From: an uncultured Candidatus Saccharibacteria bacterium
Lineage (GTDB): Bacteria; Patescibacteriota; Minisyncoccia; Phycocordibacterales; EsbW-18
Reading direction: 5' to 3'
Length of the DNA: 64,000 bases
NCBI GenBank assembly: GCA_964520295.1
Contig: CAZFMQ010000002.1
Location: 50,379-114,378, forward strand
Position 1 is the stretch's first letter. Every line of letters begins with the position of its first letter. The translations under genes were made by a program, and so were the position numbers. The notes beneath the pieces were generated by a model. The model was given only the letters and a program-made list of their open reading frames with translations, was not told the origin of the DNA and did no database searches. Below are positions 12,788-60,630 of this stretch, one piece after another.

Positions 12788-14092
12788 CTACAACGTGATG
12801 CGCTCAATGGAAAGCCCGATGCCCTGCATTTTGGCAACGGCGTCCTCATACCCGCGATCTACCCAGTGAATATTGTGAATGAGTGACGTACCTTTTCCGA
12901 CGCTTGCCGCAATAATATACGCCAATCCTGCGCGCAAATCAGGCGTGTACAGCTCGCGACCCGTCAATTTTGCAGGACCTTTTACGAGCGCCTTATGCGG
13001 ATGCACCATAACAACATCGGCACCCATGGACACAAGGTCGGCAGTATACCCCAACCGCCCTTCAAAAATCATTTCTTCAACAACACTTTCACCGTGTGCT
13101 TGTGTGCAAAGGACTAAAAATGGCGATTGTAAGTCAGTGGGAAAACCTGGGTACTCGTGCGTACGAATGCGCAATGGCGACAGTGTGCTGTTACTCTCCG
13201 TGTTGTTGGTAATGGTGATGCTGTCTGCATGCACCGAGAGTAGCACACCCGCCTGTTGCAACATCTGCAATGGCAATTCTAAATCTGCAGGATTGCAATT
13301 CGTTATGGTGAGCTGTTCTGCACACAACGCACCGAGCACCAAATAACTTCCTGCTTCAATACGATCCGGAATAACAAGATGCGCTTCTGCTTGTTGGTAT
13401 GAAAGTGGTATGCCGTTGGTGCCCACAATCGTCAGAGTATTTGTACCGATCCCTTCAATTTGTGCACCTGCCTTTTTTAGAAATACTGCCAAATCAGTCA
13501 CCTCCGGCTCCAATGCTACATTCTTGAGCACAGTAGTGCCGTGCGCCAACACACTTGCCATAAGCAATGTTTCGGTACCCGTTACACTTTGAATAGGAAA
13601 AAAGAATTCACTACCCTTGTACGTATCCGCTTCAACGGTGAATAATGCATCGCTCTCATGCACGGTTGCTCCCGCGGCTTTGTAGCCACTCAAAAATAAA
13701 TCAATCGGACGTTCGCCAATAACGCAACCACCCGGTGATGGAAATGTGACATGGTGCGTACGCGCTAATAATGCACCCGTCAAAATAATGGATGCACGAA
13801 ATTTGTTTGCGATAGCAATATCCAGTGCGCCATGCACTACAGCAGATGCATCAATGGTGATGGAATCGCCGTTGCGCGTCACACGTGCACCCGCACCCTC
13901 CAACAACGCAATCATTTTATCCACATCGGTAATCGCAGGTACGTTTGAAAACGTCACAGGCGTCTGAAAGAGCACGCTACTAGCCAATAATGGAAGCGCA
14001 TTATTCTTTGCTCCGGAAATAGCAATAGTGCCGGAGAGTTTTTTCTCCCCATTGAGCCCCTCAATACGAAACGCATCCTGCTTTGAATCCAT
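12788..14092 (-). CDS. murA: UDP-N-acetylglucosamine 1-carboxyvinyltransferase
   Basis: ISGAKNNALPLLASSVL and the EPT-fold repeats. 434 aa. Confidence 0.85.
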   Translation of the reverse strand: MDSKQDAFRIEGLNGEKKLSGTIAISGAKNNALPLLASSVLFQTPVTFSNVPAITDVDKMIALLEGAGARVTRNGDSITIDASAVVHGALDIAIANKFRASIILTGALLARTHHVTFPSPGGCVIGERPIDLFLSGYKAAGATVHESDALFTVEADTYKGSEFFFPIQSVTGTETLLMASVLAHGTTVLKNVALEPEVTDLAVFLKKAGAQIEGIGTNTLTIVGTNGIPLSYQQAEAHLVIPDRIEAGSYLVLGALCAEQLTITNCNPADLELPLQMLQQAGVLLSVHADSITITNNTESNSTLSPLRIRTHEYPGFPTDLQSPFLVLCTQAHGESVVEEMIFEGRLGYTADLVSMGADVVMVHPHKALVKGPAKLTGRELYTPDLRAGLAYIIAASVGKGTSLIHNIHWVDRGYEDAVAKMQGIGLSIERITL

Positions 14093-14123
14093 AGGTTATA
14101 TGCTGGTATCATACCATTGTCGT

Positions 14124-16022
14124 ATGTACATCATCTCTGTTATCCCCGTTATGAAGCGCGCGCCACAGGAAGGCCTGTCGTATTACAGCGCAAAAGAAAT
14201 CCCCATGGGAAGTGTTGTGCGTGTTTCAGTAGGCAAGCGCAAGGTGCATGGTCTCGTGGTAGATGTTGCACATGTCAAACAAGAAAAAACACAAATCAGA
14301 AAGGCCGGATTTGCTCTTAAAAAAATAGAGGGGGTGGTACAACGCAAACCATTTGATCCCCCACTACTCAATGCACTGCAGTCACTTGCTGAACACTACG
14401 CACGCACCATTGGCACCATGTTACATGCGGTACTACCTGAAGCACTTCTTGTAGAATCACTGTCCAGCGGGCAACCTGTAGCCCAACGCAAAACAGATGT
14501 TATTCCTGACATCAAAATTGCCACGGCATCATATGAAGATCGCATCGGACGATACAAATCACTCACACGCGAATCTTTTGCGCGCGAACAGTCGGTGGTG
14601 TGCATCTGCCCTACACAAACAGAAACGGAAACACTTGCAGAACACATCGGCAAAGGTATTGAAGATCGCTTGTTCGTATTTCATAGTCGCCTCACATCAA
14701 AAAAAATAAAGGAGCGCTGGAAGGCGGCACTCAACGCCCCACACCCAGTCGTCATTGTCGGCACCGGTATTTGCGCCACCATCCCACGTCATGACATTGG
14801 ACTGTATGTGCTGGAGCATGAATCATCGCCACACTTCAAACAAAAAGAAACACCATACGTAGATACGCGTGTAGTCGTTGAGTACATTGCGCGCGCACGA
14901 GGATGCGATCTTATTTTAGGTGATGCATATCCGCGTATTGAAACACTGCACCGCTATTTCACGCACGCTATTTCAGATATTGCACGACCAACGATGCGTC
15001 AGGAGTATCGTGCGACAGTAGACATCGTAGATATGCGCGCGCAAAAACGAGACCACGACACACCCATGTCGCTGTTCTCTGATACTGCCATCAATGCTAT
15101 TCAAGAGGCGCGCGCGCAAAAGCGTCGCACCGTGCTCTTTTGTGTACGCAAAGGGTTTGCACCGTTCACCGTATGCCGTGATTGTGGTCAAGTGTACACG
15201 TGCGGTCGGTGCGACGCGCCCATGACACTCTACAACCCCAGTGGTGACGCGCAGCACCGCACCTTTCGTTGCAACCGATGTGGCAAAGTTGAAGATGCAC
15301 AAACACTGTGCGCTACGTGCCGTTCATGGCGATTAGAAAGTTATGGTGTTGGTATTGAACATGTTGCACAACAGGTGCGTGCACAATTCCCTGACGCACT
15401 TTCCTTTGTGGTATCACGTGACGCAACACCAACACCCGCATCTGCGCAACGTGCACTTGATGCATGGGAAAAAACAACGTCAGGCATCCTCTTGGGTACT
15501 GAAATGATGTTACCCCTCCTAACAGGTAGAAACTTTGATGCCATCATCATTGTCTCTTTGGATACGCTCACCTTTCTGCCTGATTTTCGTATGGGCGAAC
15601 GTGTGTTCCATATTGTGTCGCACTGTGCACAGCTGGCACAGAAACACGTCATCGTGCAAACACGCACACCAGAATATGCAGCACTTACCTTCGCTAAAAC
15701 AGGTGATGGCCTCGGCATGTATCGCTATGAAGAAAGTGTTCGCAAAGAGTACGAGTACCCACCATTTTCAGTGTTTATAAAAATAACACGACGTGGAAAA
15801 AAGGAGACGGTCGTTGCCGATCTCACCGAACTACAAAAACTCTTCCCAGAATATCGCGCGACACTCTACCCCGCATTTGTGTCGCGTGTCCACAATATGC
15901 ACATGGCACACCTCCTGCTCTCTATTCCCTCCTCACAGTGGCCTGATCAAAAAGTATCGCGCATACTCCGTGCACTACCACCGCAATATATCATCACCGT
16001 TGAACCTGAAAGTTTGCTATAA
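14124..16022 (+). CDS. priA: Primosomal protein N' (PriA)-like with Cys4 zinc-binding domain but degenerate Walker A/B helicase motifs
   Basis: An N-terminal 3'-DNA-binding-like region, a Cys-rich CRDCGQVYTCGRCDAPMTLY...FRCNRCGK motif and helicase motifs Ia-VI alignable to PriA. The P-loop position reads ASYEDRIGRYKSL instead of GVTGSGKT, and DEEH reads LEHE. The start is chosen downstream of the divergent murA start. Confidence 0.65.
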   Translation: MYIISVIPVMKRAPQEGLSYYSAKEIPMGSVVRVSVGKRKVHGLVVDVAHVKQEKTQIRKAGFALKKIEGVVQRKPFDPPLLNALQSLAEHYARTIGTMLHAVLPEALLVESLSSGQPVAQRKTDVIPDIKIATASYEDRIGRYKSLTRESFAREQSVVCICPTQTETETLAEHIGKGIEDRLFVFHSRLTSKKIKERWKAALNAPHPVVIVGTGICATIPRHDIGLYVLEHESSPHFKQKETPYVDTRVVVEYIARARGCDLILGDAYPRIETLHRYFTHAISDIARPTMRQEYRATVDIVDMRAQKRDHDTPMSLFSDTAINAIQEARAQKRRTVLFCVRKGFAPFTVCRDCGQVYTCGRCDAPMTLYNPSGDAQHRTFRCNRCGKVEDAQTLCATCRSWRLESYGVGIEHVAQQVRAQFPDALSFVVSRDATPTPASAQRALDAWEKTTSGILLGTEMMLPLLTGRNFDAIIIVSLDTLTFLPDFRMGERVFHIVSHCAQLAQKHVIVQTRTPEYAALTFAKTGDGLGMYRYEESVRKEYEYPPFSVFIKITRRGKKETVVADLTELQKLFPEYRATLYPAFVSRVHNMHMAHLLLSIPSSQWPDQKVSRILRALPPQYIITVEPESLL

Positions 16023-50853: not shown

Positions 50854-52056
50854 ATGAATACACTACTAAAAAAAGTATGCGTGGGTCTATGTGCCCTTGC
50901 GCTCTGTGCCATTGCACTACCTACCTTTGCTCAAAAGAAAGATCTCACAGCCGATCTTGAAATATCGGGTTGGATTCCCTATTGGACCCCGACCACAGGA
51001 ACATCCGATGCCCGTAAAAATCTGGATACATTCAGCGTCCTCTTCCCCTTCACGTATTCTGTAAAGAGCGATGGAACTCTTCTTGAAAACGCCGACCTCA
51101 AGAAAAACCCGTGGAAGCGTCTTATTACTGCCGCAAAGAAAAAAGATGTGTTGATTATTCCAACCGTCATGTGGAGCAATACATCAGCAATGCATACCGT
51201 GCTCTCCATACCGCAGATGCGAGAGCAACATATTGATGAAATTGTGAAGATGGTGAAAAAAGGAAAATTTGATGGAGTTGATATTGACTACGAAGGCAAG
51301 TCAGCAGACACATATGCTGCATACGCCACCTTCCTCAAAGAACTCAAAGAAGAGCTCGGCAAAAAACTCATACTCTCATGCACCATTGAAGCGCGTACGC
51401 CACCTGAAAAACTCTACCGTACGATGCCCGCTGATCTGCGCTACGCAAACGACTTCACGGCAATTGCTCAGCACTGTGATCGCGTCAACATCATGACGTA
51501 CGATCAGCAACGCGCCGTATATGCACTCAACGAAACATACACAGGCACACCATACGTACCTATCGCCGATACAGCGTGGGTTCGCGACGTCATTGAACTG
51601 ACCCTCAAAACTATTCCGAAAGAAAAACTCTCACTCGGCATCGCCACCTACGGTCATGAATACGAAGTAGTCGTCTACCCAAACGGCTACATGGAATACG
51701 GGCGCACAGGTGCATTCAATCCTTCATACGGTATCAAAACAGCCAAAAGCAATCGGGTAACGCCTGAGCGCAATATCGCAGGGGAACTCTTTTTCTCATT
51801 CCATGTAAACGATCATGCACCACAGGCAAGAACTGCAGTGTCATACGGCGCATCTGACGCCAATCGTGCATTCGCCCAAAGCAGTGCCTACACACGTGCT
51901 ACGCAAATCCCGTCCGTCTTTTACTACGCAACGTGGAGTGATGCAGAAGCAATTGAGGAAAAAATAGAGCTCGCACGCGAATACGACCTTCGTGGTGTTG
52001 CCATCTTCAAAATAGACGGCAATGAAGACAAGGCACTCTGGAAATTACTCAAGTAA
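50854..52056 (+). CDS. Secreted glycoside hydrolase family 18 (chitinase-like) protein
   Basis: A signal peptide and the GH18 catalytic motif DGVDIDYEG (DxxDxDxE). Confidence 0.7.
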   Translation: MNTLLKKVCVGLCALALCAIALPTFAQKKDLTADLEISGWIPYWTPTTGTSDARKNLDTFSVLFPFTYSVKSDGTLLENADLKKNPWKRLITAAKKKDVLIIPTVMWSNTSAMHTVLSIPQMREQHIDEIVKMVKKGKFDGVDIDYEGKSADTYAAYATFLKELKEELGKKLILSCTIEARTPPEKLYRTMPADLRYANDFTAIAQHCDRVNIMTYDQQRAVYALNETYTGTPYVPIADTAWVRDVIELTLKTIPKEKLSLGIATYGHEYEVVVYPNGYMEYGRTGAFNPSYGIKTAKSNRVTPERNIAGELFFSFHVNDHAPQARTAVSYGASDANRAFAQSSAYTRATQIPSVFYYATWSDAEAIEEKIELAREYDLRGVAIFKIDGNEDKALWKLLK

Positions 52057-52098
52057 TTACCTAAGCCTTTTCGCACGTATCTGCTATACTCTATCTCT

Positions 52099-52557
52099 GT
52101 GACTGCACCGCTTCCGAAAAAATACAGAAATATCAAACGCTCATTACGCGTTGGACGCTCCCGCACTGGTTTGGGTTTATTTACAGATGCACCGATAGAG
52201 CACAAAGCATTTATCATTGAATACACAGGGTCATTGCTCAATCGTGTAGAAGCAGACAAGCGCGGTGGCAAATACCTCTTTGAGACAAATCGCAATCGTT
52301 TTATAGACGGCAGTGCGCGCTCAAACATCGCCCGCTACATCAACCACTCGTGTGTGCCCAACTGCGAAGTAGAGATTTTCCGCGGACGCATTTATGTGTT
52401 CTCCCTCAAAAATATCCCGTCGGGCGCTGAACTCACATATGATTACCAAAAGGAGTATTTTGATGAGTACATCAAGCCGCACGGTTGTAAGTGTCCTGCT
52501 CCTGTCCACCGCTACGGCGACAAAAAGAACGCAAAATCAAAAAAGAAATCCTCATAA
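52099..52557 (+). CDS. SET-domain protein (putative lysine methyltransferase)
   Basis: The SET signature motifs NHSCVPNC and ELTYDY, and a GxG-like stretch near the N-terminus (GLGLFT). A GTG start is predicted. There is a C-terminal Cys cluster (CKCPAPVH). Confidence 0.7.
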   Translation: MTAPLPKKYRNIKRSLRVGRSRTGLGLFTDAPIEHKAFIIEYTGSLLNRVEADKRGGKYLFETNRNRFIDGSARSNIARYINHSCVPNCEVEIFRGRIYVFSLKNIPSGAELTYDYQKEYFDEYIKPHGCKCPAPVHRYGDKKNAKSKKKSS

Positions 52558-52591: not shown

Positions 52592-53488
52592 ATGGAACAT
52601 ATTGCAGGACTGCGCACTGGTGTAACGCTCGCACCCTATAGCACCTACGCTATCGGTGGCCCGGCGGATTATTTTGTAGCCGCACAATCCAAACAGCACC
52701 TGCGTGATGCAATCGCGGCGGCACAAAAAGTCGGTATGCCATTTTTCATACTCGGCTGCGGTGCCAATGTGCTTTTTGGTGATAAAGGATTCCGTGGCAT
52801 GGTCATAAAAAATGAAGCACGAGCATACCGATTTGAAGACACCACACTGATTGCAGAAAGCGGCGCAACTATTGAAGAACTCATACACGCTAGCGCTGAG
52901 CGTAATCTCTCTGGTATGGAGCATTTTGCCGGCATTCCAAGCACGGTAGGCGGAGCACTATGGCAAAATCTGCACTTCCTATCCCCTGACCGAACGCGCA
53001 CCGTTTTTATTGCAGAAATCTTTGAACGTGCAGAGATAGTGGACACGAACGGAAATATACATACTCTGGACGCGCGCGATTTTGAATTTGGATACGATCA
53101 CAGCATTTTACACACACAAACGCTCATCGTCCTTGAAGCGCGTTTTGTACTGCACATAAAACCAAAAAACGAGATACTAGCGCAAGCAGCGGCGAATCTC
53201 GCATGGCGCGCAGAAAAACAACCGGACATCGCAACATATCCTTCCTGTGGTTCGGTGTTCAAAAAGATAGACGGCATCGGCGCTGGGCGCCTCATTGATC
53301 AAGTCGGGCTCAAAGGCGCGCGCATCGGTGGCATCGCCGTGTCAGAAAAACACGCAAACTTTCTGGTGAATATGGGCGGCGGCACCGCATCGGACGTGCG
53401 CGCGCTGATTGCACACATTCAAGAGCGCGTGCGTGCAGAGACAGGGCACCTGCTGGAGCCCGAAATCAGCTTTATAGGAGAGTTTTGA
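52592..53488 (+). CDS. murB: UDP-N-acetylenolpyruvoylglucosamine reductase
   Basis: A FAD-binding domain (GGPADYFV, ILGCGANVLF) and the MurB C-terminal domain. Confidence 0.85.
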   Translation: MEHIAGLRTGVTLAPYSTYAIGGPADYFVAAQSKQHLRDAIAAAQKVGMPFFILGCGANVLFGDKGFRGMVIKNEARAYRFEDTTLIAESGATIEELIHASAERNLSGMEHFAGIPSTVGGALWQNLHFLSPDRTRTVFIAEIFERAEIVDTNGNIHTLDARDFEFGYDHSILHTQTLIVLEARFVLHIKPKNEILAQAAANLAWRAEKQPDIATYPSCGSVFKKIDGIGAGRLIDQVGLKGARIGGIAVSEKHANFLVNMGGGTASDVRALIAHIQERVRAETGHLLEPEISFIGEF

Positions 53489-53499
53489 AAATCAACGCC

Positions 53500-53916
53500 T
53501 TATCTCCTGCGTAACGAGAGGAGCGCTAATACAAATATATAGATCAGGTGATCATCTACAATTGGATTGTTTGTTGGCAACAGCAGCGCAAGATACATGA
53601 GCGCAAGCATAACAATACCCACGAGTGCTCCCCATCGCACATACCTATTGAATAGCAATGTGCAACCCACAAAGAGCAAACCGAGCATAAATAACCAATC
53701 GATAAACATCACGCCTGACAAACTGTTAAATATTTCAGCAAACGGACCTCGCACTGCATTTGCCAAAAACCCCGCCGTGGGTGATCCACCATTAATCCAC
53801 GCTTTTTCAGCCACAGTTGCAAAACCCAAACCAAATGTTTTATCTAAAAACGCCCACAAAAAGGTAAAACCCATCATGAGACGCAAACCACCAAGAATAT
53901 ATTTTTCTTTAAGCAT
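53500..53916 (-). CDS. DoxX-family membrane protein
   Basis: Four TM helices. LRLMMGFTFLWAFLDK is typical of the DoxX N-terminus. Confidence 0.55.
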   Translation of the reverse strand: MLKEKYILGGLRLMMGFTFLWAFLDKTFGLGFATVAEKAWINGGSPTAGFLANAVRGPFAEIFNSLSGVMFIDWLFMLGLLFVGCTLLFNRYVRWGALVGIVMLALMYLALLLPTNNPIVDDHLIYIFVLALLSLRRR

Positions 53917-53999
53917 ACAAATCTGTAACTAGTAAATGTTTTTTATTTTTCACCACAATAAGTATAGCAAAACAGCTCGAGAACAAATACAATATCTCT

Positions 54000-54248
54000 A
54001 TGGCAAAAAGAATTTCTCAAGGCGTTGTGCATATGCTCCCCGCAGATGTACGGAATGTACTTGCATCAACACCCGCAATGTTGAAGGTATGGGAAGATAT
54101 TACTCCATTGGCACGTAATGAGTGGATTTGTTGGATTACATCCGCCAAACAAGCAGAAACACGAGCACGCAGATTATGCATCGCTCGCGAAAATCTTCAA
54201 AAAGGCAAACGCCGCCCGTGCTGTTGGGCGGGCTGTATGCACCGATAA
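54000..54248 (+). CDS. YdeI/OmpD-associated (DUF1801-like) small protein
   Basis: The C-terminal motif EWICWITSAKQAETRARRL matches the YdeI/OmdA signature (W.sAK..eTR.kR). Confidence 0.5.
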   Translation: MAKRISQGVVHMLPADVRNVLASTPAMLKVWEDITPLARNEWICWITSAKQAETRARRLCIARENLQKGKRRPCCWAGCMHR

Positions 54249-54424
54249 AACCCTTGTTGGCACTTACAAATGCGTTTCCAAAAACTCTAACGTCTCCTCC
54301 CATGCATCTCGCGTTTCATTAGGTGCATAGTTTGGACCTCTTGGACGAAGTTAGAACCCTTTTACTACAAGGAGAAAGTGAGTTTTACTATCGCTGTCCA
54401 TCGTTTGCTATGCCAATATAAAAA

Positions 54425-54760
54425 CTATTTTTGTAGTTTCTTTGTGATACGACCTTCTTTTATTTCATAACCTTCGGAAATAAGACGATTATGTATTCCA
54501 CGAAGAACATCTCCAAGCTCTGAAATTGCTTTGATGCTTTCATCTGTAAGTGCTGGCTTTTTCACCCCACCTTGTTCATCACTATTTATTTTCTTGTAGA
54601 GATGTGGGTTTTGTTTCTTATCCTGCTTGAGTAGCCAATCAAAAGCTCCGAGTAAATTGTGAGTAGCTTCCCACGCTTCACTATCAGAATACTCAACTCC
54701 ATACTGTTCTTTGAACATCTTTTTGAAACTGGCGACAGTTTCGGGAGAAATATGGACCAT
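54425..54760 (-). CDS. Hypothetical protein (island)
   Basis: 111 aa, AT-rich codon usage, no recognisable motifs. Confidence 0.4.
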   Translation of the reverse strand: MVHISPETVASFKKMFKEQYGVEYSDSEAWEATHNLLGAFDWLLKQDKKQNPHLYKKINSDEQGGVKKPALTDESIKAISELGDVLRGIHNRLISEGYEIKEGRITKKLQK

Positions 54761-54766
54761 TACTTT

Positions 54767-55162
54767 CTATATATTTTTATCAAGAAACTTTTTGAGAGCG
54801 ACCAAATCTTTTTTATCTTTGTCGTAATGATATGAGACAATCCCAACTGATTGAGCAGATTTTACAGCATCGGGATTATGCTCAAAATACACAACATCAT
54901 TTACACTCCAACCATTTTGCTCAAGTAGAGTTTTGAAATAGAGAGGTTCTGGTTTATCTGGATTATGCTTCATTGTAAAAACAGAATACGGGATAGAGTT
55001 CAGACCGAACTGGACCATTTGTTCATCATTTGCATTTGTGAGTATAAGTTTTGGGTTCGGATATGTCTCAAGAAGGTCAAAGAGTTCTTTGTATTGCACA
55101 TATTCTCCAGCTCCATTTTTTATTATTGCTGTATTTACAGCATCAACAAGTATAGTTTTCAT
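54767..55162 (-). CDS. HAD-superfamily hydrolase-like protein with atypical motif I (DAVNT)
   Basis: Motif I ILVDAVNT (nucleophile Asp present, second Asp replaced), motif II ILTNA, motif III Lys and motif IV FEHNPD. Confidence 0.45.
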   Translation of the reverse strand: MKTILVDAVNTAIIKNGAGEYVQYKELFDLLETYPNPKLILTNANDEQMVQFGLNSIPYSVFTMKHNPDKPEPLYFKTLLEQNGWSVNDVVYFEHNPDAVKSAQSVGIVSYHYDKDKKDLVALKKFLDKNI

Positions 55163-55163
55163 A

Positions 55164-57707
55164 TTATTTCTTTTTCAATTCTTCAAGCAACTTCAACTGC
55201 TCACGCTGGAGTGAAGCATCAAAGATGATGTGATACTCAAAGTTCTTATTTACACTCTGGAACTCATTGAACCCAATCTCTTTTGCCAAAATCTCGTTTG
55301 TAAGATTTTCAATCTTACCTTTGTATGACTGCTTGTTTGTTTCGTAGTCAGTTTTTTCATCACTTCCTTTTGCTTCCACTACAATAAAGCGTTTTGTTGT
55401 CTCAATGAGAAAATCTGGAAAGTATCGTGCCACTCTCTTTTGCTCTGGGCTCCAGTATTCAAAATAGAAGTCAGTCCTGCTCGGGTCCGCACACACACGG
55501 GCTCCAGTAAAGTAAACATCTTTGATTGTCTCGTCTTTATCAAGCACATCTCGGAGGTATCGGAACAAATCTTTTTCATCACCGCTATCAAACGCATACG
55601 GATTGATATGGAAGCCAAGACGACCCTTTCGCCCTTCTTCTGCTTCGGCTTCTTTGTATACCACAAGCGTATTCCTGCCTTGCTGGACACTGATTTTGAA
55701 CGGAAAGAGTTTTGTGAGCTCAATTTCTTCTTCAATAATATCCGTCTTTTCTTCATACTTGTATGCACTGCGGAGGATTTCTTGTATCACGAAAGGCACG
55801 AGAGCAAAGTTCTCGTTTACCATTTCAACAAAAGCATCTCGCTTCTTACCGCTTCCAGTGATAATGCTTTCAATAGTGAGACAAGGGAGATGTGTATAGC
55901 GATTGATGATTTCTGCTATCTCATAGAAAGTGAAATCACTTTTGTCTTCAAGTTTTCGGACTGCACGAGCTTCTTTGTATACAGCTTCGCCGTCTTCTCC
56001 GAGAGCGATGCTTCCTTCACTCACAAATGATTGATACTGCTCTGGCTTCCATTTCTTCCAATCAATCTTGATACTCTCTGCGTTTGCTTCTTGCACCGCT
56101 AAAATCTCTTTGAGAACTTTCTTTACTTTGATTGTCTTTCGCTTCTCAACTTCAAGCGTATGCTCAACCATCTTTTGGTCCTGTGCGTTCAATTCACTGA
56201 TGCTTGATGAGAAGTTATTGCGAAGCTCTTTGTCCAAGATAGTAGCTGTTTCTTTTGAGAGAAAGATACTTGCCCGAGTAGAATTGTCGCCGATAGAACG
56301 AAGACATCGTGTTGTAGATTGAAGCACGAGAATAGTGCTTTTCGGCTTCTTGTAGAGTGCCACAGAGACAAGTGAGCGACAGTTCCATCCTTCTGTGCCT
56401 TTGCCCACCAAGAGCACAAAACGCTTCTTACTGTCTGCGGTATCAAGAGCTTTGAACTCATCAGCATTGTCTTCGGCTTCTGTGTGATATTCCAAGATTG
56501 TATCAAGTGAGATATTTTTCTCGGCTAAAATACGCTCAAGTTTTGGCTTCAAATCATTTTGCAAATCAGCAATGCTTGATGCGTAAAAAGCAATTTTTGG
56601 CAATCGTCCTTCAAGCCGTCTTGTGCCATATTCAGAGATGAAAACATCCACCACTTCTTCAATGAACTTCTGGGACCGCACGACACCATAGTCAAAAATC
56701 TTCACCTTCTTGAGTATTCCTTTTTCAATACCTTGCTTCAATCCAAAGTGATACACCACATCGGCAATCATCTTGTTGTTTACATAGGGCGTTCCAGTGA
56801 GGTTCACCACAGAGATGAGTGGAGTGTGCTTGTGAAGATAATCAATCGTCTGGCGTGTTTTCTTCAAATCTCCTTCAAGGTTTTTGCCGTATGAGTGATG
56901 AGCTTCGTCCACGAATATTTGGAGCGAGCCGAGCTGTCGGATTGCTTGCAAACGCATATTCTCAATCTCTCTTTTCTCAAGCTCGTTTTTATCTCCAAAC
57001 AATCGCTTGGTAGCATTGTCGCCATTACTGCTTCGTGTCTTCAAGATAATCTTCTGCGAGTTTGAAACGATAACATTGTAATTGCCAACTGGAGCAAGTG
57101 CGGTATCAGTGCTTTCAAGATAGTGATACTTTATATTCAAAATAATGTTTTCATACTCTTTTGGGAGGACCCGAGAATAGTCAAAGGTTTTGATTTCTTT
57201 TAAGCTCTCAATGATTGTGGTATCGGGAGCAAATACAAGAGCGTTTTTTGCGAAGCGTTCATCGTCTTTGTGATAATACGAAAGCACAAAATCATAGAGC
57301 ATCATTACCGCCATCAAAATTGTTTTACCCGAACCCATCGTCAGTGCATACACTTGGTTTGCATAGTCAGAGGTCCCGAACTTTTCATCAAGGATGACTT
57401 GTATCTTTTCTTCCTTCTTTACATCTCGCATCAACGCAAGCGTTTCTTTATCAGTAAGCCCGAGCCCTTGCATAAAATCAATCTCGTTCTCAAAAGAGTT
57501 TTTGAAAATCTCAACCGATGGCTTGTTGCCGATAACTTCTTTCAAGAAAATGTATGTCTCAAGAGCTTCAATCTGTGGTCCGTGCAAAAAAGACACTCGC
57601 TTGATATGAGTGAGTATATTTTCTGTCTCTTTGTGGACCCCTTTGTATCCATCAGCACGCCATTTCTCAACGAGCTTTTGGATATTTTGTAGAAATAAAC
57701 TGTCCAT
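55164..57707 (-). CDS. res: Type III restriction enzyme Res subunit (SF2 helicase + PD-(D/E)XK nuclease)
   Basis: Helicase motif I ALTMGSGKT, motif II FVDEAHH, and a C-terminal nuclease motif PDFLIE...VVEAKG. Confidence 0.8.
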   Translation of the reverse strand: MDSLFLQNIQKLVEKWRADGYKGVHKETENILTHIKRVSFLHGPQIEALETYIFLKEVIGNKPSVEIFKNSFENEIDFMQGLGLTDKETLALMRDVKKEEKIQVILDEKFGTSDYANQVYALTMGSGKTILMAVMMLYDFVLSYYHKDDERFAKNALVFAPDTTIIESLKEIKTFDYSRVLPKEYENIILNIKYHYLESTDTALAPVGNYNVIVSNSQKIILKTRSSNGDNATKRLFGDKNELEKREIENMRLQAIRQLGSLQIFVDEAHHSYGKNLEGDLKKTRQTIDYLHKHTPLISVVNLTGTPYVNNKMIADVVYHFGLKQGIEKGILKKVKIFDYGVVRSQKFIEEVVDVFISEYGTRRLEGRLPKIAFYASSIADLQNDLKPKLERILAEKNISLDTILEYHTEAEDNADEFKALDTADSKKRFVLLVGKGTEGWNCRSLVSVALYKKPKSTILVLQSTTRCLRSIGDNSTRASIFLSKETATILDKELRNNFSSSISELNAQDQKMVEHTLEVEKRKTIKVKKVLKEILAVQEANAESIKIDWKKWKPEQYQSFVSEGSIALGEDGEAVYKEARAVRKLEDKSDFTFYEIAEIINRYTHLPCLTIESIITGSGKKRDAFVEMVNENFALVPFVIQEILRSAYKYEEKTDIIEEEIELTKLFPFKISVQQGRNTLVVYKEAEAEEGRKGRLGFHINPYAFDSGDEKDLFRYLRDVLDKDETIKDVYFTGARVCADPSRTDFYFEYWSPEQKRVARYFPDFLIETTKRFIVVEAKGSDEKTDYETNKQSYKGKIENLTNEILAKEIGFNEFQSVNKNFEYHIIFDASLQREQLKLLEELKKK

Positions 57708-57711
57708 AGTT

Positions 57712-59475
57712 TTATGCGTTTACTTCAAAGGTTTCAAAGTATTCTTCGCCGAGCACATCCACGACCTTGATGGCGACAGTATATTTGCCTTTCTTTGGAT
57801 ACTCCCACGAATACTTTGCCTTGATAACCTCTTTCTTATCTGGCAAGTCCATCACTTCGGCATTGAACAGCTTGCCGTTGTAATCAACATCAATCGCTAC
57901 GCTATCAATAATCTGTTTGAAATCTTCAACCTTTGCTTTGTGGTCCTTCTTCAACACCTTTTCATTTTCAATCTCCAGCTTCCGCATCAGTATCGGAGAA
58001 TAGAAATCTTTGAGCTCCACAGAGAGTTTCTTGTCTTTTGCTTTCACATCAATCTTCGCTTCTGGTTTCTTCTTGAAGATGAGATTTTTCTTGTCAGTCA
58101 AAATGTCTCGGACCTCTATCTTAACACCCGTCTTGTTTTCTTTCTTGATAAAATCAAGCACATCAAGCTCCATACCAGAGCAGATGACAAGCACGCCTTC
58201 TTCATACACTGGCTCGCCAGCTTTTGATTTTGTCTTCACTGTAAAGCCGTCTTTTTTATCATCCACATTTTTGATGAGTGTGCGAATATCCATCTTGTTG
58301 AGCACTCTGTTCATCGGCATCACTTTCACAAAGTTTTTATCAAGCACACCATCAAAGTATGTTCGCTTTACTGGCTCTACTCCATACATCTCCATTACGA
58401 TTTCTTTTGCTTCAATCTCGTTCTTGAAGACATCATAATCGTTCACATTGAGCACTTTGAAACCGAGAGAACCTTTGAAGCCCTTTGTTTTTTCTTTTTG
58501 CTGGTCCGAAACTATCTGATTGAGATACTTTGCTGTTGTCTGTATTGAGCCGAGATTTATATCGCATCCAATCCATTTTCGCCCCAGTTTTTGTGCAACT
58601 CCACAAGTAGTCCCAGAGCCAACAAAAAAGTCAGCGACAACATCTCCTTCATTTGATGATGCCTTGATTATTCTCGCAAGCAGATTTTCATTTTTTTGCG
58701 TAGGATAGTTTCTCTTTTCACCACTAAAACTCATAATCTGGATACTATCCATACTATCCAATTCATTACAGTTCCAAGTATCTTCAATGGGGTATCCTTC
58801 TCCTTCTGGTTTTGCTCCATCTCTGCGTTTGTAATCCGCTGGGTATTTTATGTATTCCTTATTGAAAGTATGATGTTCTTTGTTTTTTGAGTAGTAGAAA
58901 ATTACATCGTGATTTCGTATCCAGTTTTTTGCAACTGATTTATAGCCAGAAATCCAACCTATACGCCAGATTATCTCTCGCTGGAAGTTTTCAACTCCAA
59001 ATACTTCATCAAGTATTATTTTTATATAGTGAGAGCGTTTCTCGTCCATATGGACATAAATACTTCCAGTTTCAGACAAGAGCTCTCTCATCAATACCAA
59101 TCTTTCGTATATAAATTGTAAATACTCATCTCTCTCCCAAATATCCGTATATTGTTTTTCTTCAAAAAGTCCTTGTCCAACTCCTTCAACTTGCTCACCT
59201 CGTATTTTTACTTTGCGAACATAATCCGCCTTACTATCAAACGGAGGGTCAATGTATATCAAATCAATCTTGCCACGATATTGTTTCAATAGATGTGAAA
59301 GGACCTGCAAGTTATCGCCCCAAAATAGTTTATTGAAATCTTTTGCTTCCTTGTCTCCATACACTTCTGTCTCTTGTGCTGGATAAAATTGAACACTCTC
59401 AAGAGGTTTTTTACCAACCCATTGTAGAAGTGGACGACCTTTTGCTTGTTCTACTTTTTGATAATCATTTTTCAT
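57712..59475 (-). CDS. mod: Type III R-M Mod subunit (beta-class N6-adenine/N4-cytosine DNA methyltransferase)
   Basis: Motif IV DPPF (LIYIDPPFD) precedes motif I FFVGSGTT, which is the beta-class order typical of Mod. There is a Lys-rich C-terminal extension of about 280 aa. Confidence 0.8.
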   Translation of the reverse strand: MKNDYQKVEQAKGRPLLQWVGKKPLESVQFYPAQETEVYGDKEAKDFNKLFWGDNLQVLSHLLKQYRGKIDLIYIDPPFDSKADYVRKVKIRGEQVEGVGQGLFEEKQYTDIWERDEYLQFIYERLVLMRELLSETGSIYVHMDEKRSHYIKIILDEVFGVENFQREIIWRIGWISGYKSVAKNWIRNHDVIFYYSKNKEHHTFNKEYIKYPADYKRRDGAKPEGEGYPIEDTWNCNELDSMDSIQIMSFSGEKRNYPTQKNENLLARIIKASSNEGDVVADFFVGSGTTCGVAQKLGRKWIGCDINLGSIQTTAKYLNQIVSDQQKEKTKGFKGSLGFKVLNVNDYDVFKNEIEAKEIVMEMYGVEPVKRTYFDGVLDKNFVKVMPMNRVLNKMDIRTLIKNVDDKKDGFTVKTKSKAGEPVYEEGVLVICSGMELDVLDFIKKENKTGVKIEVRDILTDKKNLIFKKKPEAKIDVKAKDKKLSVELKDFYSPILMRKLEIENEKVLKKDHKAKVEDFKQIIDSVAIDVDYNGKLFNAEVMDLPDKKEVIKAKYSWEYPKKGKYTVAIKVVDVLGEEYFETFEVNA

Positions 59476-59503
59476 AGTAATTGTAATCTTGGTTAGGGTG
59501 TCC

Positions 59504-59713
59504 TTATGAATGGGACTTCAGATAATTGATAATGTCTTCCTTTCGGTATCTTCGCACTCGTTTCGCACCGATGCGGATGGCTGGAAGTGTGCCATTGTTA
59601 TCCCACTGGCGGAGCGTGTTCGGATGGACCTTCAGCAAATCACACGCTTCTTGCAGTGTCAGAAGTTCTGGAACTTCCTCCTGTTCTTGCTTTTTATCGC
59701 TGTTATTTATCAT
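59504..59713 (-). CDS. Excisionase/AlpA-like helix-turn-helix DNA-binding protein
   Basis: LLTLQEACDLLKVHPNTLRQWDNNGTLPAIRIGAKRVRRYRKEDI is an HTH_17/Xis-type motif. It lies upstream of mod-res. Confidence 0.6.
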   Translation of the reverse strand: MINNSDKKQEQEEVPELLTLQEACDLLKVHPNTLRQWDNNGTLPAIRIGAKRVRRYRKEDIINYLKSHS

Positions 59714-60039
59714 AAAAATTGATTGATTTTCTACTTACCTTTTGATACCATTATCTTACAGTATTTTGCCTTTTGAAGCAAAATTGCCCTGTAGATAAAC
59801 ATTACTATTACTATGAAACTGGGAGTAAAAATCAAAGAAAGAATAGCAAGAACGATTGCCGAACACTTTACTACAAATGAGATAGTAAATGTTTTTACAG
59901 ATGCAAACATCACTACAGACAAATCTCTTTATGCAAAATGGCGAGAATAAAAAGGGACTTTTTCATATACCAAAAGTATACAACATTGGGCAGGTGATGC
60001 TATATACAACTGAACATCCCCACGAGTGAGAAATTGGCA

Positions 60040-60516
60040 CTAATCTAGACCACCTTTATATGGACTAGGATCATTGGCGCATTTTGGATTATCACCTGAT
60101 ACCTGAGAGGCTATTGAAGCGGCAAGTTCATTATCAGGTTCTCTAATCGCTATATGATATGCCGCCGCTCCTGCATCAAAGCAGTGTCCAATCTCAAACA
60201 GAGCCAAGGCATGTGCAGACCAAAAATGAATATCCTCCCACACTAAATCTCTATAATTTTCAATTCCGTCATTGGTAACTTTGACAACCATATCCCAATC
60301 TTTATTTTCTACAAGATAATCAAGGAAAGGAAGTACCTCATCTAGATCGCCTTTCGTGTAAGGATTTTTATTGGAATCTGATTCTTCTGATAACCCAATT
60401 GTCTCAGAAGTATCAATCGGTACGGAAGATATTGAATAGTTTGAGTACTTCCATACAAAGAATCCCACAACAATCAACAGAACTACAACGCCAGAGATAA
60501 TCGAACCTTTCTTCAT
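60040..60516 (-). CDS. Membrane-anchored hypothetical protein (island)
   Basis: An N-terminal TM helix (IISGVVVLLIVVGFFVW). No recognisable motifs. Confidence 0.4.
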   Translation of the reverse strand: MKKGSIISGVVVLLIVVGFFVWKYSNYSISSVPIDTSETIGLSEESDSNKNPYTKGDLDEVLPFLDYLVENKDWDMVVKVTNDGIENYRDLVWEDIHFWSAHALALFEIGHCFDAGAAAYHIAIREPDNELAASIASQVSGDNPKCANDPSPYKGGLD

Positions 60517-60558
60517 ACCCCTGATTATAGCTGCTTGATTCAAAATATGCTAAATATG

Positions 60559-60630
60559 CTCCGCGGGTAGGATTCGAACCTACGACCAACTCCTTAACAG
60601 GGAGCTGCACTACCGCTGTGCTACCGCGGA
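60559..60630 (-). tRNA. tRNA-Asn (anticodon GUU)
   Basis: The reverse complement folds as a cloverleaf: acceptor UCCGCGG/CCGCGGA, D-arm GCAC-AGCGGUA-GUGC, anticodon stem GCUCC/GGAGU with loop CUGUUAA, T-arm GUAGG-UUCGAAU-CCUAC, discriminator G. Confidence 0.85.

What the first reader, a model, noticed from the sequence alone, without database searches (positions are those of the whole stretch)
54330..60630. AT-rich defence island inserted next to tRNA-Asn: complete Type III R-M (mod-res) with excisionase-like HTH, no integrase
GC falls from about 47% to about 35% across a sharply bounded block of about 6.2 kb. It ends exactly at the 3' end of a tRNA-Asn(GUU) gene, a classic integration hot-spot. 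All island genes are co-directional on the minus strand:
- an Xis/AlpA-type HTH (59504-59713);
- a beta-class Mod methyltransferase (57712-59475);
- Res helicase-nuclease (55164-57707);
- a HAD-like protein with a mutated motif I;
- two hypotheticals.

The Mod has an unusually long Lys-rich C-terminal extension of about 280 aa. No integrase or recombinase is present, so the element may be decayed or mobilised in trans. The small co-directional ORFs flanking res (the HAD-like protein and the 111-aa hypothetical) are uncharacterised and could be accessory defence components.
Basis: partly seen in the sequence, partly recalled or inferred. Interest (0 to 1): 0.7.

Follow-up and report, generated by a model that had tools for sequence, protein, structure and literature searches.

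The report
Decayed mobile element carrying restriction system
The AT-rich block beside tRNA-Asn is the leftover of a mobile element common in Patescibacteria (CPR) that inserts at tRNA gene ends using a serine recombinase; here it has lost that recombinase but still carries an apparently intact, divergent Type III-like restriction-modification operon, so the island itself is fairly ordinary.

Summary
Window 54333-60557 (6,225 bp) has GC 0.39 against 0.48 elsewhere, not 0.35. It is the lowest-GC and most compositionally deviant 6.2-kb stretch of the window, and it abuts the 3' end of tRNA-Asn(GUU).

It holds an operon HTH_17 - Mod - Res - 111-aa ORF. This operon is shared at 87-93% nucleotide identity with about 13-kb elements found across Patescibacteria.

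Those elements carry a large serine recombinase (LSR), a Toprim primase and DUF5659. They insert at the 3' ends of tRNA or tmRNA genes, antisense to the RNA gene, and attP lies inside the LSR gene's own 3' end. Integration therefore moves the last ~27 LSR codons to the far end of the element.

The window keeps exactly that orphan LSR tail (54332-54421, + strand) at the end distal to the tRNA. It has no LSR, primase or DUF5659.

The island is therefore a decayed LSR element, not a tyrosine-integrase island, which explains why no tRNA direct repeat exists.

- **Mod:** a beta-class methyltransferase with a hypervariable central TRD. Its long C-terminal part is a conserved family trait.
- **Res:** an SF2 helicase with a C-terminal PD-ExK motif. 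It misses all Type III Res profiles.
- **HAD-like gene:** a lineage-specific insertion.

The parts
54333..60557 (.). The island: foreign AT-rich block between the native flank and the 3' end of tRNA-Asn
   Evidence: GC is 0.391 against 0.477, and this is the most deviant 6.2-kb window. Homology to CPR elements starts at 54333. The outer flank ends '..agTT', as does the native sequence before the tRNA 3' end in 5 relatives. No comparable block sits at the tRNA-Asn 3' flank in L014, L007 or L011.
54332..54421 (+). Orphan 3'-terminal coding segment (about 27-29 codons plus stop) of a large serine recombinase gene. It marks the distal (attR-side) end of the element
   Evidence: The peptide LDLLDEVRTLLLQGESEFYYRCPSFAMPI is conserved in L001-4, L042 and L015. 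Of 16 variable columns, 11 are at codon position 3. It aligns to the extreme C-terminus of the LSRs P0131 (E 3e-10) and P0217 (E 9e-7). In L055 the homologous tail (DDVRTILLGGKSGF...) is contiguous with the LSR ORF. There is no Rfam hit and no significant fold.
54425..54760 (-). 111-aa ORF of unknown function, a fusion of two small modules
   Evidence: It is 87-90% identical in L001-4 and L042, where its start overlaps the Res stop. The N-domain occurs as standalone 61-85-aa proteins and as the 56-61-aa backbone gene between DUF5659 and the primase. The C-module occurs as standalone 72-84-aa proteins. No Pfam, PADLOC or PHROG hit. AF2 pLDDT is 78 and there is no fold match.
54767..55162 (-). 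131-aa divergent HAD-like protein, a lineage-specific insertion into the cassette
   Evidence: The gene is absent from all other copies of the cassette: the homology gap is 54766-55162. GC is 0.34. HAD hits are below threshold. The family has 191 representative clusters, with D7, T42, K70 and H95 conserved and no second Asp anywhere in the family.
55164..57707 (-). Res-like subunit (847 aa): SF2 helicase plus a C-terminal PD-ExK nuclease motif
   Evidence: ResIII scores 1e-8. Motifs are GSGKT at 125, DEAH at 267, TGTP at 304, QSTTRCLR at 463, and PDF at 764 followed by VEAK at 777. D765, E778 and K780 are invariant in 30 homologues. There is a weak TnsA-like hit. No PADLOC REase_III hit, no PDB hit, and only motif-level similarity to EcoPI Res.
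57712..59475 (-). Mod subunit (587 aa), a beta-class N6A/N4C DNA methyltransferase
   Evidence: N6_N4_Mtase scores 4.7e-52. The PADLOC MTase_III profile PDLC03633 covers aa 46-577. EcoP15I Mod 4zcf_A scores 1.4e-22. DPPF is at 76 and FxGSGTT at 283-290.
58666..59115 (-). Hypervariable central region of Mod (aa ~121-270), the inferred target-recognition domain
   Evidence: Identity to five homologues falls to 20-59% here, against 73-95% on both sides. DNA homology to L001-4 breaks at 58708-59071.
59504..59713 (-). 69-aa HTH_17 / excisionase-family DNA-binding protein, a backbone gene at the head of the cargo operon
   Evidence: HTH_17 scores 1.5e-13 and TIGR01764 scores 36 bits against a cut-off of 28.8. 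It is 98.6% identical in L001-4 and L049. In L050 it is 73% identical and precedes GmrSD plus Type I genes.
59470..59490 (.). Operator-like motif ATTACAATTACTATG overlapping the Mod start codon
   Evidence: It is conserved before the first cargo gene in L049, L042, L048 and L050. It forms a 21-nt, 90% complementary inverted repeat with 59798-59818 (I8).
59798..59818 (.). Inverted copy of the same motif, upstream of the HTH gene
   Evidence: TAGTAAT-type repeats also occur at this position in L049, L042 and L048.
59810..60557 (.). AT-rich segment unrelated to the element family. It holds a 45-aa ORF (59813-59950, +) and a 167-aa (or 158-aa) N-terminally membrane-anchored ORF (60040-60543, -). 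It occupies the place where the ~8-kb backbone and LSR would be
   Evidence: GC is 0.374. No tblastn or tblastx similarity to any fetched locus. No family hit except a sub-threshold SoxE_N match.
60543..60560 (.). 9-nt tandem repeat AAATATGCT x2 overlapping the tRNA 3' end. It may be a junction scar
   Evidence: Read directly from the sequence. The two nucleotides before GCTCC are 'AT' in the window and in L008, which also has a foreign block there. They are 'TT' in L007, L009, L011, L013 and L015, and 'CA' in L014.
60558..60630 (-). tRNA-Asn(GUU), intact. This is the integration target
   Evidence: ARAGORN and Rfam at 71 bits. The + strand through it reads MLRG*DSNLRPTP, which matches the tails of integrated LSRs such as P0143 MLRGQDSNLQPSP.

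Best explanation
The block 54333-60557 is the decayed remnant of a large-serine-recombinase (LSR) integrative element that once inserted at the 3' end of tRNA-Asn.

What is shown in relatives. Intact elements are about 13 kb. Their gene order is LSR, small ORFs, Toprim primase, DUF5659 and a variable gene. Divergently transcribed from these are HTH_17 and a swappable defence cargo. attP lies inside the 3' end of the LSR gene. Integration occurs at the extreme 3' end of a tRNA or tmRNA gene, antisense to it. The LSR body is then fused to antisense tRNA sequence, and the last ~27 LSR codons end up at the opposite end of the element.

What is shown in the window. The distal end (the LSR tail) and the cargo operon survive. 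The roughly 8-kb backbone with the LSR is gone and 748 bp of unrelated DNA lies in its place.

What is inferred about mobility. The island should be immobile.

What is inferred about function from architecture and motifs. The cargo should work as a Type III-like restriction-modification system. Mod would methylate one strand of a short asymmetric site chosen by its central TRD. A Mod-Res complex would use the SF2 ATPase to communicate between unmodified sites. It would cut with the C-terminal PD-ExK nuclease (D765, E778, K780).

What is inferred about regulation. The HTH probably binds the ATTAC-repeat sites that flank its gene and controls the divergent promoters. This step has weaker support than the others.
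For: Cassette identity:
- It is shared at 87-93% nucleotide identity with L001-4 over 54333-54765, 55163-58707 and 59072-59809.
- Res homologues at 67-97% identity (the 120 listed of 4,687 hits) occur in MAGs labelled as many different CPR lineages.

Full elements:
- L048 and L049 carry an LSR at the opposite end from the cargo.
- In L050 the LSR stop overlaps the tRNA-Gln 3' end in antisense, and the cargo differs.
- In L043 the recombinase overlaps the tmRNA 3' end.

LSR tails:
- Of 112 full-length LSR homologues, 48 end in antisense-tRNA peptide (DSNP, DSNL and similar), 28 stop just after the LL motif and 14 carry the native ..L(D/N)(E/D)VRT.. tail.
- The window peptide matches that native tail.
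- It shows coding-type substitution, with 11 of 16 variable columns at codon position 3.

Circular form:
- L055 shows the circularly permuted (attP) arrangement. The LSR with its tail is directly followed by convergent cargo genes, including the Res C-terminus. No tRNA is present.

Geometry in the window:
- The orientation is exactly as predicted: tail on the + strand at the left end, antisense tRNA at the right end.
- The outer flank ends in the 'TT' that natively precedes the tRNA 3' end in five relatives.
- L015 has the same tail 765 bp from its tRNA-Asn.
- No LSR or backbone gene is in the window.

Site comparison:
- No comparable block sits at the tRNA-Asn 3' flank in L014, L007 or L011.
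- L008 has different genes there.

R-M evidence.
Against: - The attL side cannot be demonstrated. Nothing next to the tRNA is recognisably LSR-derived beyond a possible 'AATATGCT' vestige, which is not significant.
- The origin of 59810-60557 is unexplained.
- The closest relatives share only 89% S1 identity, so the empty-site comparison is between genera or species, not strains. L009 has a 100-N scaffold gap exactly at the site.
- The closest cassette relative (L049) may target a different tRNA. This is inferred from the tail of P0121, whose LSR is 92% identical. How one near-identical attP half serves different tRNAs is not shown.
- Res is not detectably related to EcoPI or EcoP15I Res beyond motifs. 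Its AF2 model is poor, with pLDDT 55.
- No methylation or cleavage data exist.
Confidence: 0.8

Rival explanations
1. The island is a still-mobile, non-autonomous element. It would be excised and integrated in trans by a recombinase encoded elsewhere in the genome or by a co-resident element.
For: The distal end (LSR tail, attR-like) is intact. Related complete elements are abundant in the same habitats.
Against: Serine integrases need both attL and attR. The tRNA-proximal side lacks the LSR-derived half-site, which is replaced by unrelated DNA. Contigs from two other samples are 100% identical to the window across the parts of the island and flanks they cover, consistent with fixation. No recombinase is in the 64-kb window.
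Confidence: 0.06
2. The cassette reached this locus without LSR integration here. For example, homologous or illegitimate recombination with a resident or incoming element could have delivered it, and the adjacency to the tRNA is coincidental or reflects a general hot spot.
For: The cassette is modular. Its upstream boundary (59809) coincides with a point where family members diverge: TPR, 400-aa, 389-aa or 492-aa genes. L008 has unrelated defence genes at the same flank with no LSR tail.
Against: The left boundary coincides with the element terminus seen in four independent contexts. Tail and tRNA have exactly the orientation that LSR integration predicts. The outer flank ends in the native TT.
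Confidence: 0.1
3. Mod-Res is not a classical Type III restriction enzyme. It could be a different methyltransferase-linked helicase-nuclease defence, or Res could be inactive so that Mod acts as an orphan or epigenetic methyltransferase.
For: No REase_III profile hit. The NCBIfam BPTD_3080 score is 86 bits against a cut-off of 800. There is no PDB sequence hit even with a profile. hhalign against EcoPI Res gives probability <1%. The slot after Res is filled by varying genes: 111 aa, PDDEXK_1, 272 aa or 369 aa.
Against: mod and res are adjacent (4-nt spacer here) in every copy fetched. All helicase and PD-ExK catalytic residues are invariant over 30 homologues. The nuclease motif and its position mirror EcoPI Res: YFPDF..VVEAK against YSPDF..IIETK. 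The Mod TRD is hypervariable, as expected for a system under specificity diversification.
Confidence: 0.15
4. The block is native. It would be an ancestral, vertically inherited AT-rich region rather than an insertion.
For: Contigs from two other samples of the same species are 100% identical to the window. The neighbouring DoxX gene is also AT-rich.
Against: Nucleotide identity to elements in contigs with unrelated flanking genes is 87-93%. The block is absent from the syntenic site in L014, L007 and L011. Composition is extreme. An orphan recombinase tail is present.
Confidence: 0.02

Closest known systems
Type III restriction-modification systems (EcoPI / EcoP15I Mod-Res)
   Same: - The operon is mod then res.
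- Mod is a beta-class N6_N4 methyltransferase (DPPF before FxGxG) with a central variable TRD, and has significant similarity to EcoP15I Mod (1.4e-22).
- Res has an N-terminal SF2 helicase and a C-terminal YxPDF...ExK nuclease motif, in the same order as EcoPI Res.
   Different: - Res is 847 aa against 970 aa.
- It has no significant sequence or profile similarity to EcoPI or EcoP15I Res, or to PADLOC REase_III models.
- Mod carries a conserved ~270-aa C-terminal part with no Pfam family.
- A small variable gene is translationally coupled after res.
- Recognition site and cleavage behaviour are unknown.
Large serine recombinase (serine integrase) integrative elements and prophages (phiC31, Bxb1, A118, SCCmec Ccr, SPbeta SprA)
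   Same: Relatives encode a Resolvase + Recombinase + Zn_ribbon LSR at one end of the element. Integration is site-specific, and no long direct repeats are produced.
   Different: - The targets are 3' ends of tRNA or tmRNA genes, read antisense. [quoted passage not shown]
- attP lies inside the recombinase's own coding sequence, so integration replaces its C-terminus.
- The window itself lacks the LSR.
tRNA-associated genomic or defence islands mobilised by tyrosine integrases (Islander-type)
   Same: It is a foreign AT-rich block abutting the 3' end of a tRNA gene, it carries defence cargo, and the tRNA remains intact.
   Different: There is no tyrosine integrase and no duplicated tRNA 3' segment at the far end. 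The boundary marker is a recombinase gene fragment instead.
Integration-dependent gene remodelling, recalled from memory and not checked in a paper here: mycobacteriophage BPs-type integration-dependent immunity, with attP inside the repressor gene
   Same: attP is located inside an element gene, so integration changes that protein's C-terminus.
   Different: Here the split gene is the recombinase itself, and the recombinase is a serine, not a tyrosine, type. Any regulatory consequence is untested.

Membership tests
Type III R-M | Adjacent co-directional mod then res genes | tested here: met
   Mod is 57712-59475 and Res is 55164-57707, with a 4-nt spacer. The pair is conserved in all related loci.
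Type III R-M | Mod is a beta-class N6A/N4C methyltransferase (motif IV DPPY/F before motif I FxGxG) with a central TRD | tested here: met
   PF01555 at 4.7e-52. PADLOC MTase_III profile matched over its full length. EcoP15I Mod at 1.4e-22. DPPF at 76 and FxGSGTT at 283. Hypervariable region at aa 121-270.
Type III R-M | Res has SF2 helicase/ATPase motifs | tested here: met
   PF04851 at 1e-8. GSGKT, DEAH, TGTP and QxxxRxxR are present. Foldseek gives generic SF2 helicase matches.
Type III R-M | Res has a C-terminal PD-(D/E)xK endonuclease domain | tested here: inconclusive
   PD at 764-765 and ExK at 778-780 are invariant in 30 homologues. A sub-threshold TnsA-like hit scores E 0.0039. The motif aligns with EcoPI YSPDF..IIETK, but not significantly. 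The AF2 model of this region is low-confidence.
Type III R-M | Res is detectably homologous to characterised Type III Res or REase_III profiles | tested here: not met
   No PADLOC REase_III hit. No PDB hit with sequence or profile. hhalign probability is 0.8% and BLASTP reaches only helicase motifs V-VI at E 0.004. NCBIfam BPTD_3080 scores 86 against a cut-off of 800 bits.
Type III R-M | Hemimethylation of an asymmetric site; ATP-dependent cleavage about 25 bp from one of two inversely oriented sites | not testable with these tools
   This needs methylome data or biochemistry.
Excisionase / HTH_17 (Xis-AlpA-MerR-like) | HTH_17 / TIGR01764 DNA-binding domain | tested here: met
   PF12728 at 51 bits against a cut-off of 27. 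TIGR01764 at 36 bits against 28.8. PHROG excisionase and regulator families also hit.
Excisionase / HTH_17 (Xis-AlpA-MerR-like) | Acts as a recombination directionality factor | not testable with these tools
   The gene sits mid-element at divergent promoters and is flanked by ATTAC-repeat sites. That position is more typical of a regulator.
Tyrosine-integrase tRNA island | Direct repeat of the tRNA 3' segment at the distal end, with an integrase next to the tRNA | tested here: not met
   No repeat within 3 mismatches anywhere in the window. No integrase.
LSR integrative element (this CPR family) | LSR gene adjacent and antisense to the tRNA 3' end | tested here: not met
   Absent from the window. 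Present in relatives L050 and L043.
LSR integrative element (this CPR family) | Orphan LSR C-terminal coding tail at the distal end, in the orientation that reads towards the cargo | tested here: met
   Window 54332-54421, + strand. The same tail at the same junction occurs in L001-4 (four different flanks) and L042.
LSR integrative element (this CPR family) | A circular or attP form exists in which the tail is contiguous with the LSR and abuts the cargo end | tested here: met
   L055. It is a relative, not the window's own element.
HAD superfamily phosphatase | Motif I DxDx(T/V) with both aspartates, plus motifs II-IV | tested here: not met
   The motif reads LVDAVNT. The second Asp is absent in all 22 aligned family members, while D7, T42, K70 and H95 are conserved. 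Pfam and NCBIfam hits are below threshold.
MADS (methylation-associated defence system) | A MAD1 HTH together with the other mad genes | tested here: not met
   Only a weak HTH-level hit: NF047737 at 27.6 bits against a cut-off of 80, and PADLOC mad1 at 2.4e-9. No other mad gene is present.

The most novel reading that the evidence does not exclude
The window preserves the footprint of an undescribed, CPR-wide family of ~13-kb serine-recombinase/primase elements with three proposed properties.
1. They use the conserved 3' acceptor and T-arm of tRNA and tmRNA genes as attB.
2. They carry attP inside the recombinase ORF, so that integration swaps the enzyme's last ~27 residues for antisense-tRNA-encoded residues. 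This could act as a built-in switch of recombinase state.
3. They serve as exchange platforms for defence cargo (Type III-like R-M, GmrSD + Type I, PDDEXK genes) behind a common HTH.

The near-identical Mod-Res in contigs labelled as different CPR classes would then reflect very recent inter-lineage spread.
Probability: 0.45. Interest if true: 0.6.

Novelty: new variant of a known kind. Interest (0 to 1): 0.45.

Why it matters
The window's island is a routine defence island: an R-M operon stranded next to a tRNA. Resolving it still exposes how defence genes move among Patescibacteria, organisms with tiny genomes, few known mobile elements and no genetics.

- **Integration mechanism.** Integration by serine integrases at tRNA or tmRNA genes was regarded as essentially unreported as recently as 2020 (PMC7192596). 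Here 48 of 112 full-length homologues carry antisense-tRNA tails. One contig (L055) shows the circularly permuted (attP) form.
- **Possible tools.** Such recombinases have predictable tRNA attB sites. They could become genetic tools for CPR or their hosts.
- **Annotation.** The Res clade is invisible to PADLOC's Type III Res (REase_III) profiles, so automated surveys would call these systems orphan methyltransferases and under-count restriction in CPR.

Tried and rejected
1. **Direct repeat of the tRNA 3' end.** None was found within 3 mismatches. With a serine recombinase none is expected.
2. **The conserved 72-nt element as an RNA or att hairpin.** There is no Rfam hit. Fold z-scores are -1.8 and +0.8. 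This idea was rejected in favour of coding sequence.
3. **The tail as a replacement C-terminus for a disrupted host gene.** This was rejected because terminator hairpins and stop codons precede it in each context.
4. **Searches with the 30-aa peptide.** A viral-contig scan found nothing.
5. **L009 as an empty site.** This was withdrawn: a 100-N scaffold gap abuts the tRNA.
6. **Res structure.** The AF2 model has pLDDT 55. Foldseek returned only generic SF2 helicases. The profile search against PDB was empty. hhalign and BLASTP against EcoPI Res reached motif level only.
7. **111-aa structure.** The model is confident enough (pLDDT 78) but has no fold match at E<1.
8. **LSR remnant next to the tRNA.** Only the tRNA-antisense match appeared. 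There is no recombinase-body remnant.
9. **Homology of 59810-60557 or its 45-aa ORF to backbone genes.** None was found.
10. **Apparent recombinase hit at 14346-14540.** The ORF there (14028-16022) reads as PriA by inspection of its translation.
11. **Literature searches for this element family.** Nothing specific was found.


Full report
**1. Observation**

Composition:
- GC is 0.391 over 54333-60557 and 0.477 over 1-54332.
- Among all 6.2-kb windows of the 64 kb this is the minimum (mean 0.468, sd 0.023).
- It also has the largest tetranucleotide distance from the rest (0.436 against a median of 0.127).
Only the HAD-like gene is that low (0.34). Res is 0.41 and Mod is 0.38.

ARAGORN and Rfam find a single tRNA, Asn(GUU), at 60558-60630 on the minus strand. 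Its 3' end faces the island.

- HTH_17, 59504-59713.
- N6_N4_Mtase, 57712-59475.
- ResIII helicase, 55164-57707.
- A sub-threshold HAD-like ORF, 54767-55162.
- A family-less 111-aa ORF, 54425-54760.

No recombinase is present in the island or elsewhere in the window. A weak hit at 14.3 kb falls in an ORF (14028-16022) that reads as PriA.

**2. The cassette is shared with mobile elements across Patescibacteria**

Res has thousands of homologues. The 120 listed are 67-97% identical. They come from MAGs labelled Moranbacteria, Gracilibacteria, Nomurabacteria, Uhrbacteria, Paceibacteria and others.

At the DNA level the window matches contigs L001-L004 at 87-93% over three stretches:
- 54333-54765.
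- 55163-58707.
- 59072-59809.

Two gaps separate these stretches. The first, 54766-55162, is the HAD-like gene, which is absent from every other copy. In L001-4 and L042 the Res stop overlaps the start of the 111-aa gene. The second, 58708-59071, is the middle of Mod.

A six-way Mod alignment shows aa 1-120 and 271-587 conserved at 73-95%. Identity in aa 121-270 falls to 20-59%. The central region is therefore the exchangeable target-recognition domain. PADLOC's MTase_III profile PDLC03633 covers aa 46-577.

**3. What carries the cassette**

In relatives the cassette is the right-hand part of an element with this gene order:
- Large serine recombinase (Resolvase + Recombinase + Zn_ribbon, 530-551 aa).
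- Small ORFs.
- Toprim primase (about 730 aa).
- A 56-70-aa ORF.
- DUF5659.
- A variable gene (TPR, 389+309 aa, 400+322 aa or 492 aa).
- Divergently: HTH_17 and the cargo.

Many contigs that carry it are 13-14 kb long. The cargo is exchangeable. In L050 the same HTH (73% identity) precedes GmrSD and a Type I HsdM/HsdS.

A second element type carries Mod-Res together with a Prim-Pol/AAA_25 gene and a serine recombinase.

**4. The 72-nt element at the island's far end**

Window 54341-54412 is conserved in three places:
- L001-4.
- L042.
- L015, a relative of the window organism. There it lies 765 bp downstream of tRNA-Asn, in a GC-rich context.

It is not an Rfam family and does not fold significantly.

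It is coding. The peptide is (W)LD..VRTLLLxGxSxFYYRCPxFAMPx*, and 11 of 16 variable columns are at codon position 3.

Upstream sequences differ in each context and usually contain a terminator hairpin or a stop codon. So it is not the end of a host gene.

I then searched with the LSR of L049 and read the C-termini of the hits. All share ..EIYSQNPRLL and then diverge. Of 112 full-length homologues:
- 48 continue with peptides such as PDRDSNPDTILQRDVSYH or RGQDSNLRPSG. These are antisense translations of tRNA T-arm and acceptor sequences.
- 28 stop within three residues, for example ..LLRG*.
- 14 continue with ..L(D/N)(E/D)VRT.LL.GKS.F.., which is the same sequence as the window peptide.

BLASTP places the window peptide on residues 530-554 of 558 in P0131 (E 3e-10) and on 530-547 of 557 in P0217 (E 9e-7).

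**5. Direct confirmation in relatives**

- In L050 the LSR ORF ends ..SPKLLRG* and its last 13 nt overlap the 3' end of a tRNA-Gln(CUG) gene on the opposite strand.
- In L043 the recombinase overlaps the 3' end of the tmRNA gene.
- L055 is a 10.2-kb contig with the backbone in the usual order. Its LSR carries the native tail (..LGVLDDVRTILLGGKSGFAYHFAY*).
- That tail is followed immediately by convergent cargo genes. No tRNA is present. The cargo genes are:
  - a SAM methyltransferase;
  - an 88-aa homologue of the N-domain of the 111-aa protein;
  - a PDDEXK_1 protein, 74% identical to the one in L048;
  - the C-terminus of Res.

L055 is the circular permutation expected for the excised (attP) form. 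So attP lies within the 3' end of the LSR gene, and attB is the extreme 3' end of a tRNA or tmRNA gene, read antisense. Integration separates the last ~27 codons from the LSR body and places them at the far end of the element, next to the last cargo gene.

**6. Fit to the window**

The geometry is exactly as predicted:
- The tail is on the + strand at the left end (54332-54421) and reads towards the cargo.
- The cargo is on the minus strand.
- The tRNA is on the minus strand at the right end. The + strand through it reads MLRG*DSNLRPTP*, close to the tails of integrated LSRs (P0143 MLRGQDSNLQPSP).

The junction sequences also fit. In L007, L009, L011, L013 and L015 the two nucleotides before the tRNA 3' end (in window orientation) are TT. 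The window's outer flank at 54331-54332 ends ..agTT before the element begins. The nucleotides now next to the tRNA are AT, as they are in L008, which also has a foreign block there.

The breakpoints are therefore 54332|54333 and 60557|60558, to within a few bases.

What is missing is the ~8-kb backbone and the LSR. In its place is 59810-60557 (GC 0.37), which has no similarity to any fetched locus. It holds:
- a 45-aa ORF;
- a 167-aa (or 158-aa) ORF with an N-terminal membrane anchor.

A 9-nt tandem repeat (AAATATGCT x2, 60543-60560) overlaps the tRNA end. It may be a scar. I could not show that.

**7. Presence and absence in relatives**

The best relatives have 89% S1 identity (L007, L008, L014). 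Synteny is GH18 - SET - [variable] - S1 - Pth - LepB.
- ARAGORN missed tRNA-Asn in L008 and L014 because it contains a group I intron (RF00028, 60 bits).
- L014 has about 850 bp between SET and the tRNA.
- L007 and L011 have no comparable block at the tRNA-Asn 3' flank.
- L008 has about 5.6 kb of different genes there: a 256-aa ORF that looks DpnI-like by eye (not run against any profile), a truncated methyltransferase and others.
- L015 has the LSR tail remnant.
- L009 has a 100-N scaffold gap at the tRNA end and cannot be used.

The tRNA-Asn 3' flank is therefore a recurrently used insertion site in this lineage.

Three contigs from two other samples (L052 and L053; L054, gene order only) carry parts of the same arrangement. 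L052 (7,146 bp) and L053 (3,342 bp) are 100% identical to the window. This is consistent with a fixed island in this species.

**8. The restriction-modification system**

Mod:
- It is a beta-class enzyme, with DPPF at 76 and FxGSGTT at 283.
- It is significantly similar to EcoP15I Mod.

Res:
- It has SF2 motifs I, II, III and VI, and a C-terminal PD(764-765)...E778-x-K780 motif.
- These residues are invariant in 30 homologues.
- The nuclease region gives a sub-threshold TnsA-like hit.
- It lines up, without significance, with the EcoPI Res motif: YFPDF..VVEAK against YSPDF..IIETK.

Res matches no PADLOC REase_III model and no PDB chain, by sequence or by profile. Its similarity to EcoPI Res is limited to helicase motifs V-VI (E 0.004; hhalign probability <1%). 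The AF2 model is poor (pLDDT 55) and retrieves only generic SF2 helicases.

I therefore describe the system as Type III-like by architecture, with a divergent Res clade. Both genes are full length relative to their homologues. Function is inferred, not shown.

**9. Accessory ORFs**

The 111-aa protein:
- It is a fusion of two small modules that also occur separately.
- Its N-domain is homologous to the 56-61-aa backbone gene between DUF5659 and the primase.
- The slot after Res is variable across elements: 111 aa, PDDEXK_1, 272 aa or 369 aa.
- Its model is a helical hairpin, then a helix and a beta-hairpin. It has no fold match.
- Its role is unknown. Its link to element backbones argues as much for an element function as for a defence function.

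The HAD-like protein:
- It belongs to a small family of 191 representative clusters. Members are standalone proteins or C-terminal domains.
- The whole family lacks the second motif-I aspartate but conserves D7, T42, K70 and H95.
- It is not associated with the R-M cassette elsewhere.

**10. The HTH**

By family it is an excisionase-type HTH_17. It sits at the divergent promoter region between backbone and cargo.

The motif ATTAC(A/T)ATTACTATG overlaps the start codon of the first cargo gene in five diverged elements, including the one with different cargo. An inverted copy lies upstream of the HTH gene.

I infer a regulator of the divergent operons. A role as a recombination directionality factor is not excluded.

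**11. Literature**

Keyword searches found no description of this element family.

[quoted passage not shown] It reports 14 of 297 computational cases and says these need experimental proof.

My search was limited to the held library, so novelty is provisional.

**12. Verdict**

- The island is an ordinary kind of object: a stranded defence cargo beside a tRNA.
- The added value is the mechanism of arrival. It is an LSR element with attP inside its own gene that targets tRNA 3' ends.
- A second addition is recognition of a Res clade missed by PADLOC's Type III Res (REase_III) profiles.

Noticed in passing
L008:9461-9790 and L014:9112-9460 (sister genomes); window 60558-60630: tRNA-Asn in two of the closest relatives is interrupted by a group I intron in the anticodon loop (RF00028, about 60 bits), so ARAGORN misses it. 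The window's tRNA-Asn has no intron.
   Followed up: partly
L008:3887-9166: A different ~5.6-kb block lies at the same tRNA-Asn 3' flank. It holds a 256-aa ORF that looks DpnI-like by eye (no profile search run), a truncated N6_N4-type methyltransferase, a possible DUF2726/NERD-like ORF and unknown ORFs. No LSR tail was detected.
   Followed up: partly
window 60543-60560: A perfect 9-nt tandem repeat AAATATGCT x2 overlaps the last 3 nt of tRNA-Asn. The window and L008, which both have a foreign block there, have 'AT' before GCTCC; L007, L009, L011, L013 and L015 have 'TT' and L014 has 'CA'. It may be a recombination or deletion scar.
   Followed up: partly
window 59813-59950 (+) and 60040-60543 (-): Two orphan ORFs (45 aa, and 167 or 158 aa with an N-terminal TM helix) lie in the 748 bp between the cassette and the tRNA. 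They have no homologue in any fetched element and no family hit. The exact 167-aa sequence is not in the 15-billion-protein collection, but a 158-aa call of the same ORF is on record.
   Followed up: partly
L003:11145-18222: Immediately beyond the element end lies a second candidate defence operon: HTH_31, a 1083-aa SNF2/ResIII helicase, DUF4391, DUF3800 and a 676-aa N6_N4 methyltransferase.
   Followed up: no
L005/L006:18336-18544: A CD-NTase-like gene (NTP_transf_2 + CD_NTase_C, CBASS-type) lies next to the serine-recombinase end of the second element type.
   Followed up: no
P0406 (1349 aa): A leucyl-tRNA synthetase homologue carries inserted NUDIX, Ham1-like and HAD-like domains. The HAD-like domain (aa 856-981) belongs to the same family as the window's 131-aa protein.
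   Followed up: no
L001/L049 (P0009, labelled Candidatus Gracilibacteria CG1_02_38_174): The element genes translate cleanly with table 11, although from memory Gracilibacteria are reported to read UGA as Gly. Either the bin label is unreliable or the element avoids UGA. Lineage labels used for the 'cross-class spread' claim should be treated with caution.
   Followed up: no
window 50854-52557 and sister loci: A secreted GH18 chitinase-like protein and a SET-domain protein form a conserved syntenic pair next to the variable tRNA-Asn region in this Paceibacteria/Campbellbacteria-like lineage. MurB, DoxX and OmdA (52592-54248) are present at this position only in the window genome.
   Followed up: partly
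L043:13707-15577: The second element type (Prim-Pol/AAA_25 plus a 513-aa serine recombinase) has its recombinase 3' end overlapping the tmRNA gene 3' end, next to smpB. Targeting of tRNA-like 3' ends is thus shared by two different serine-recombinase element types.
   Followed up: partly
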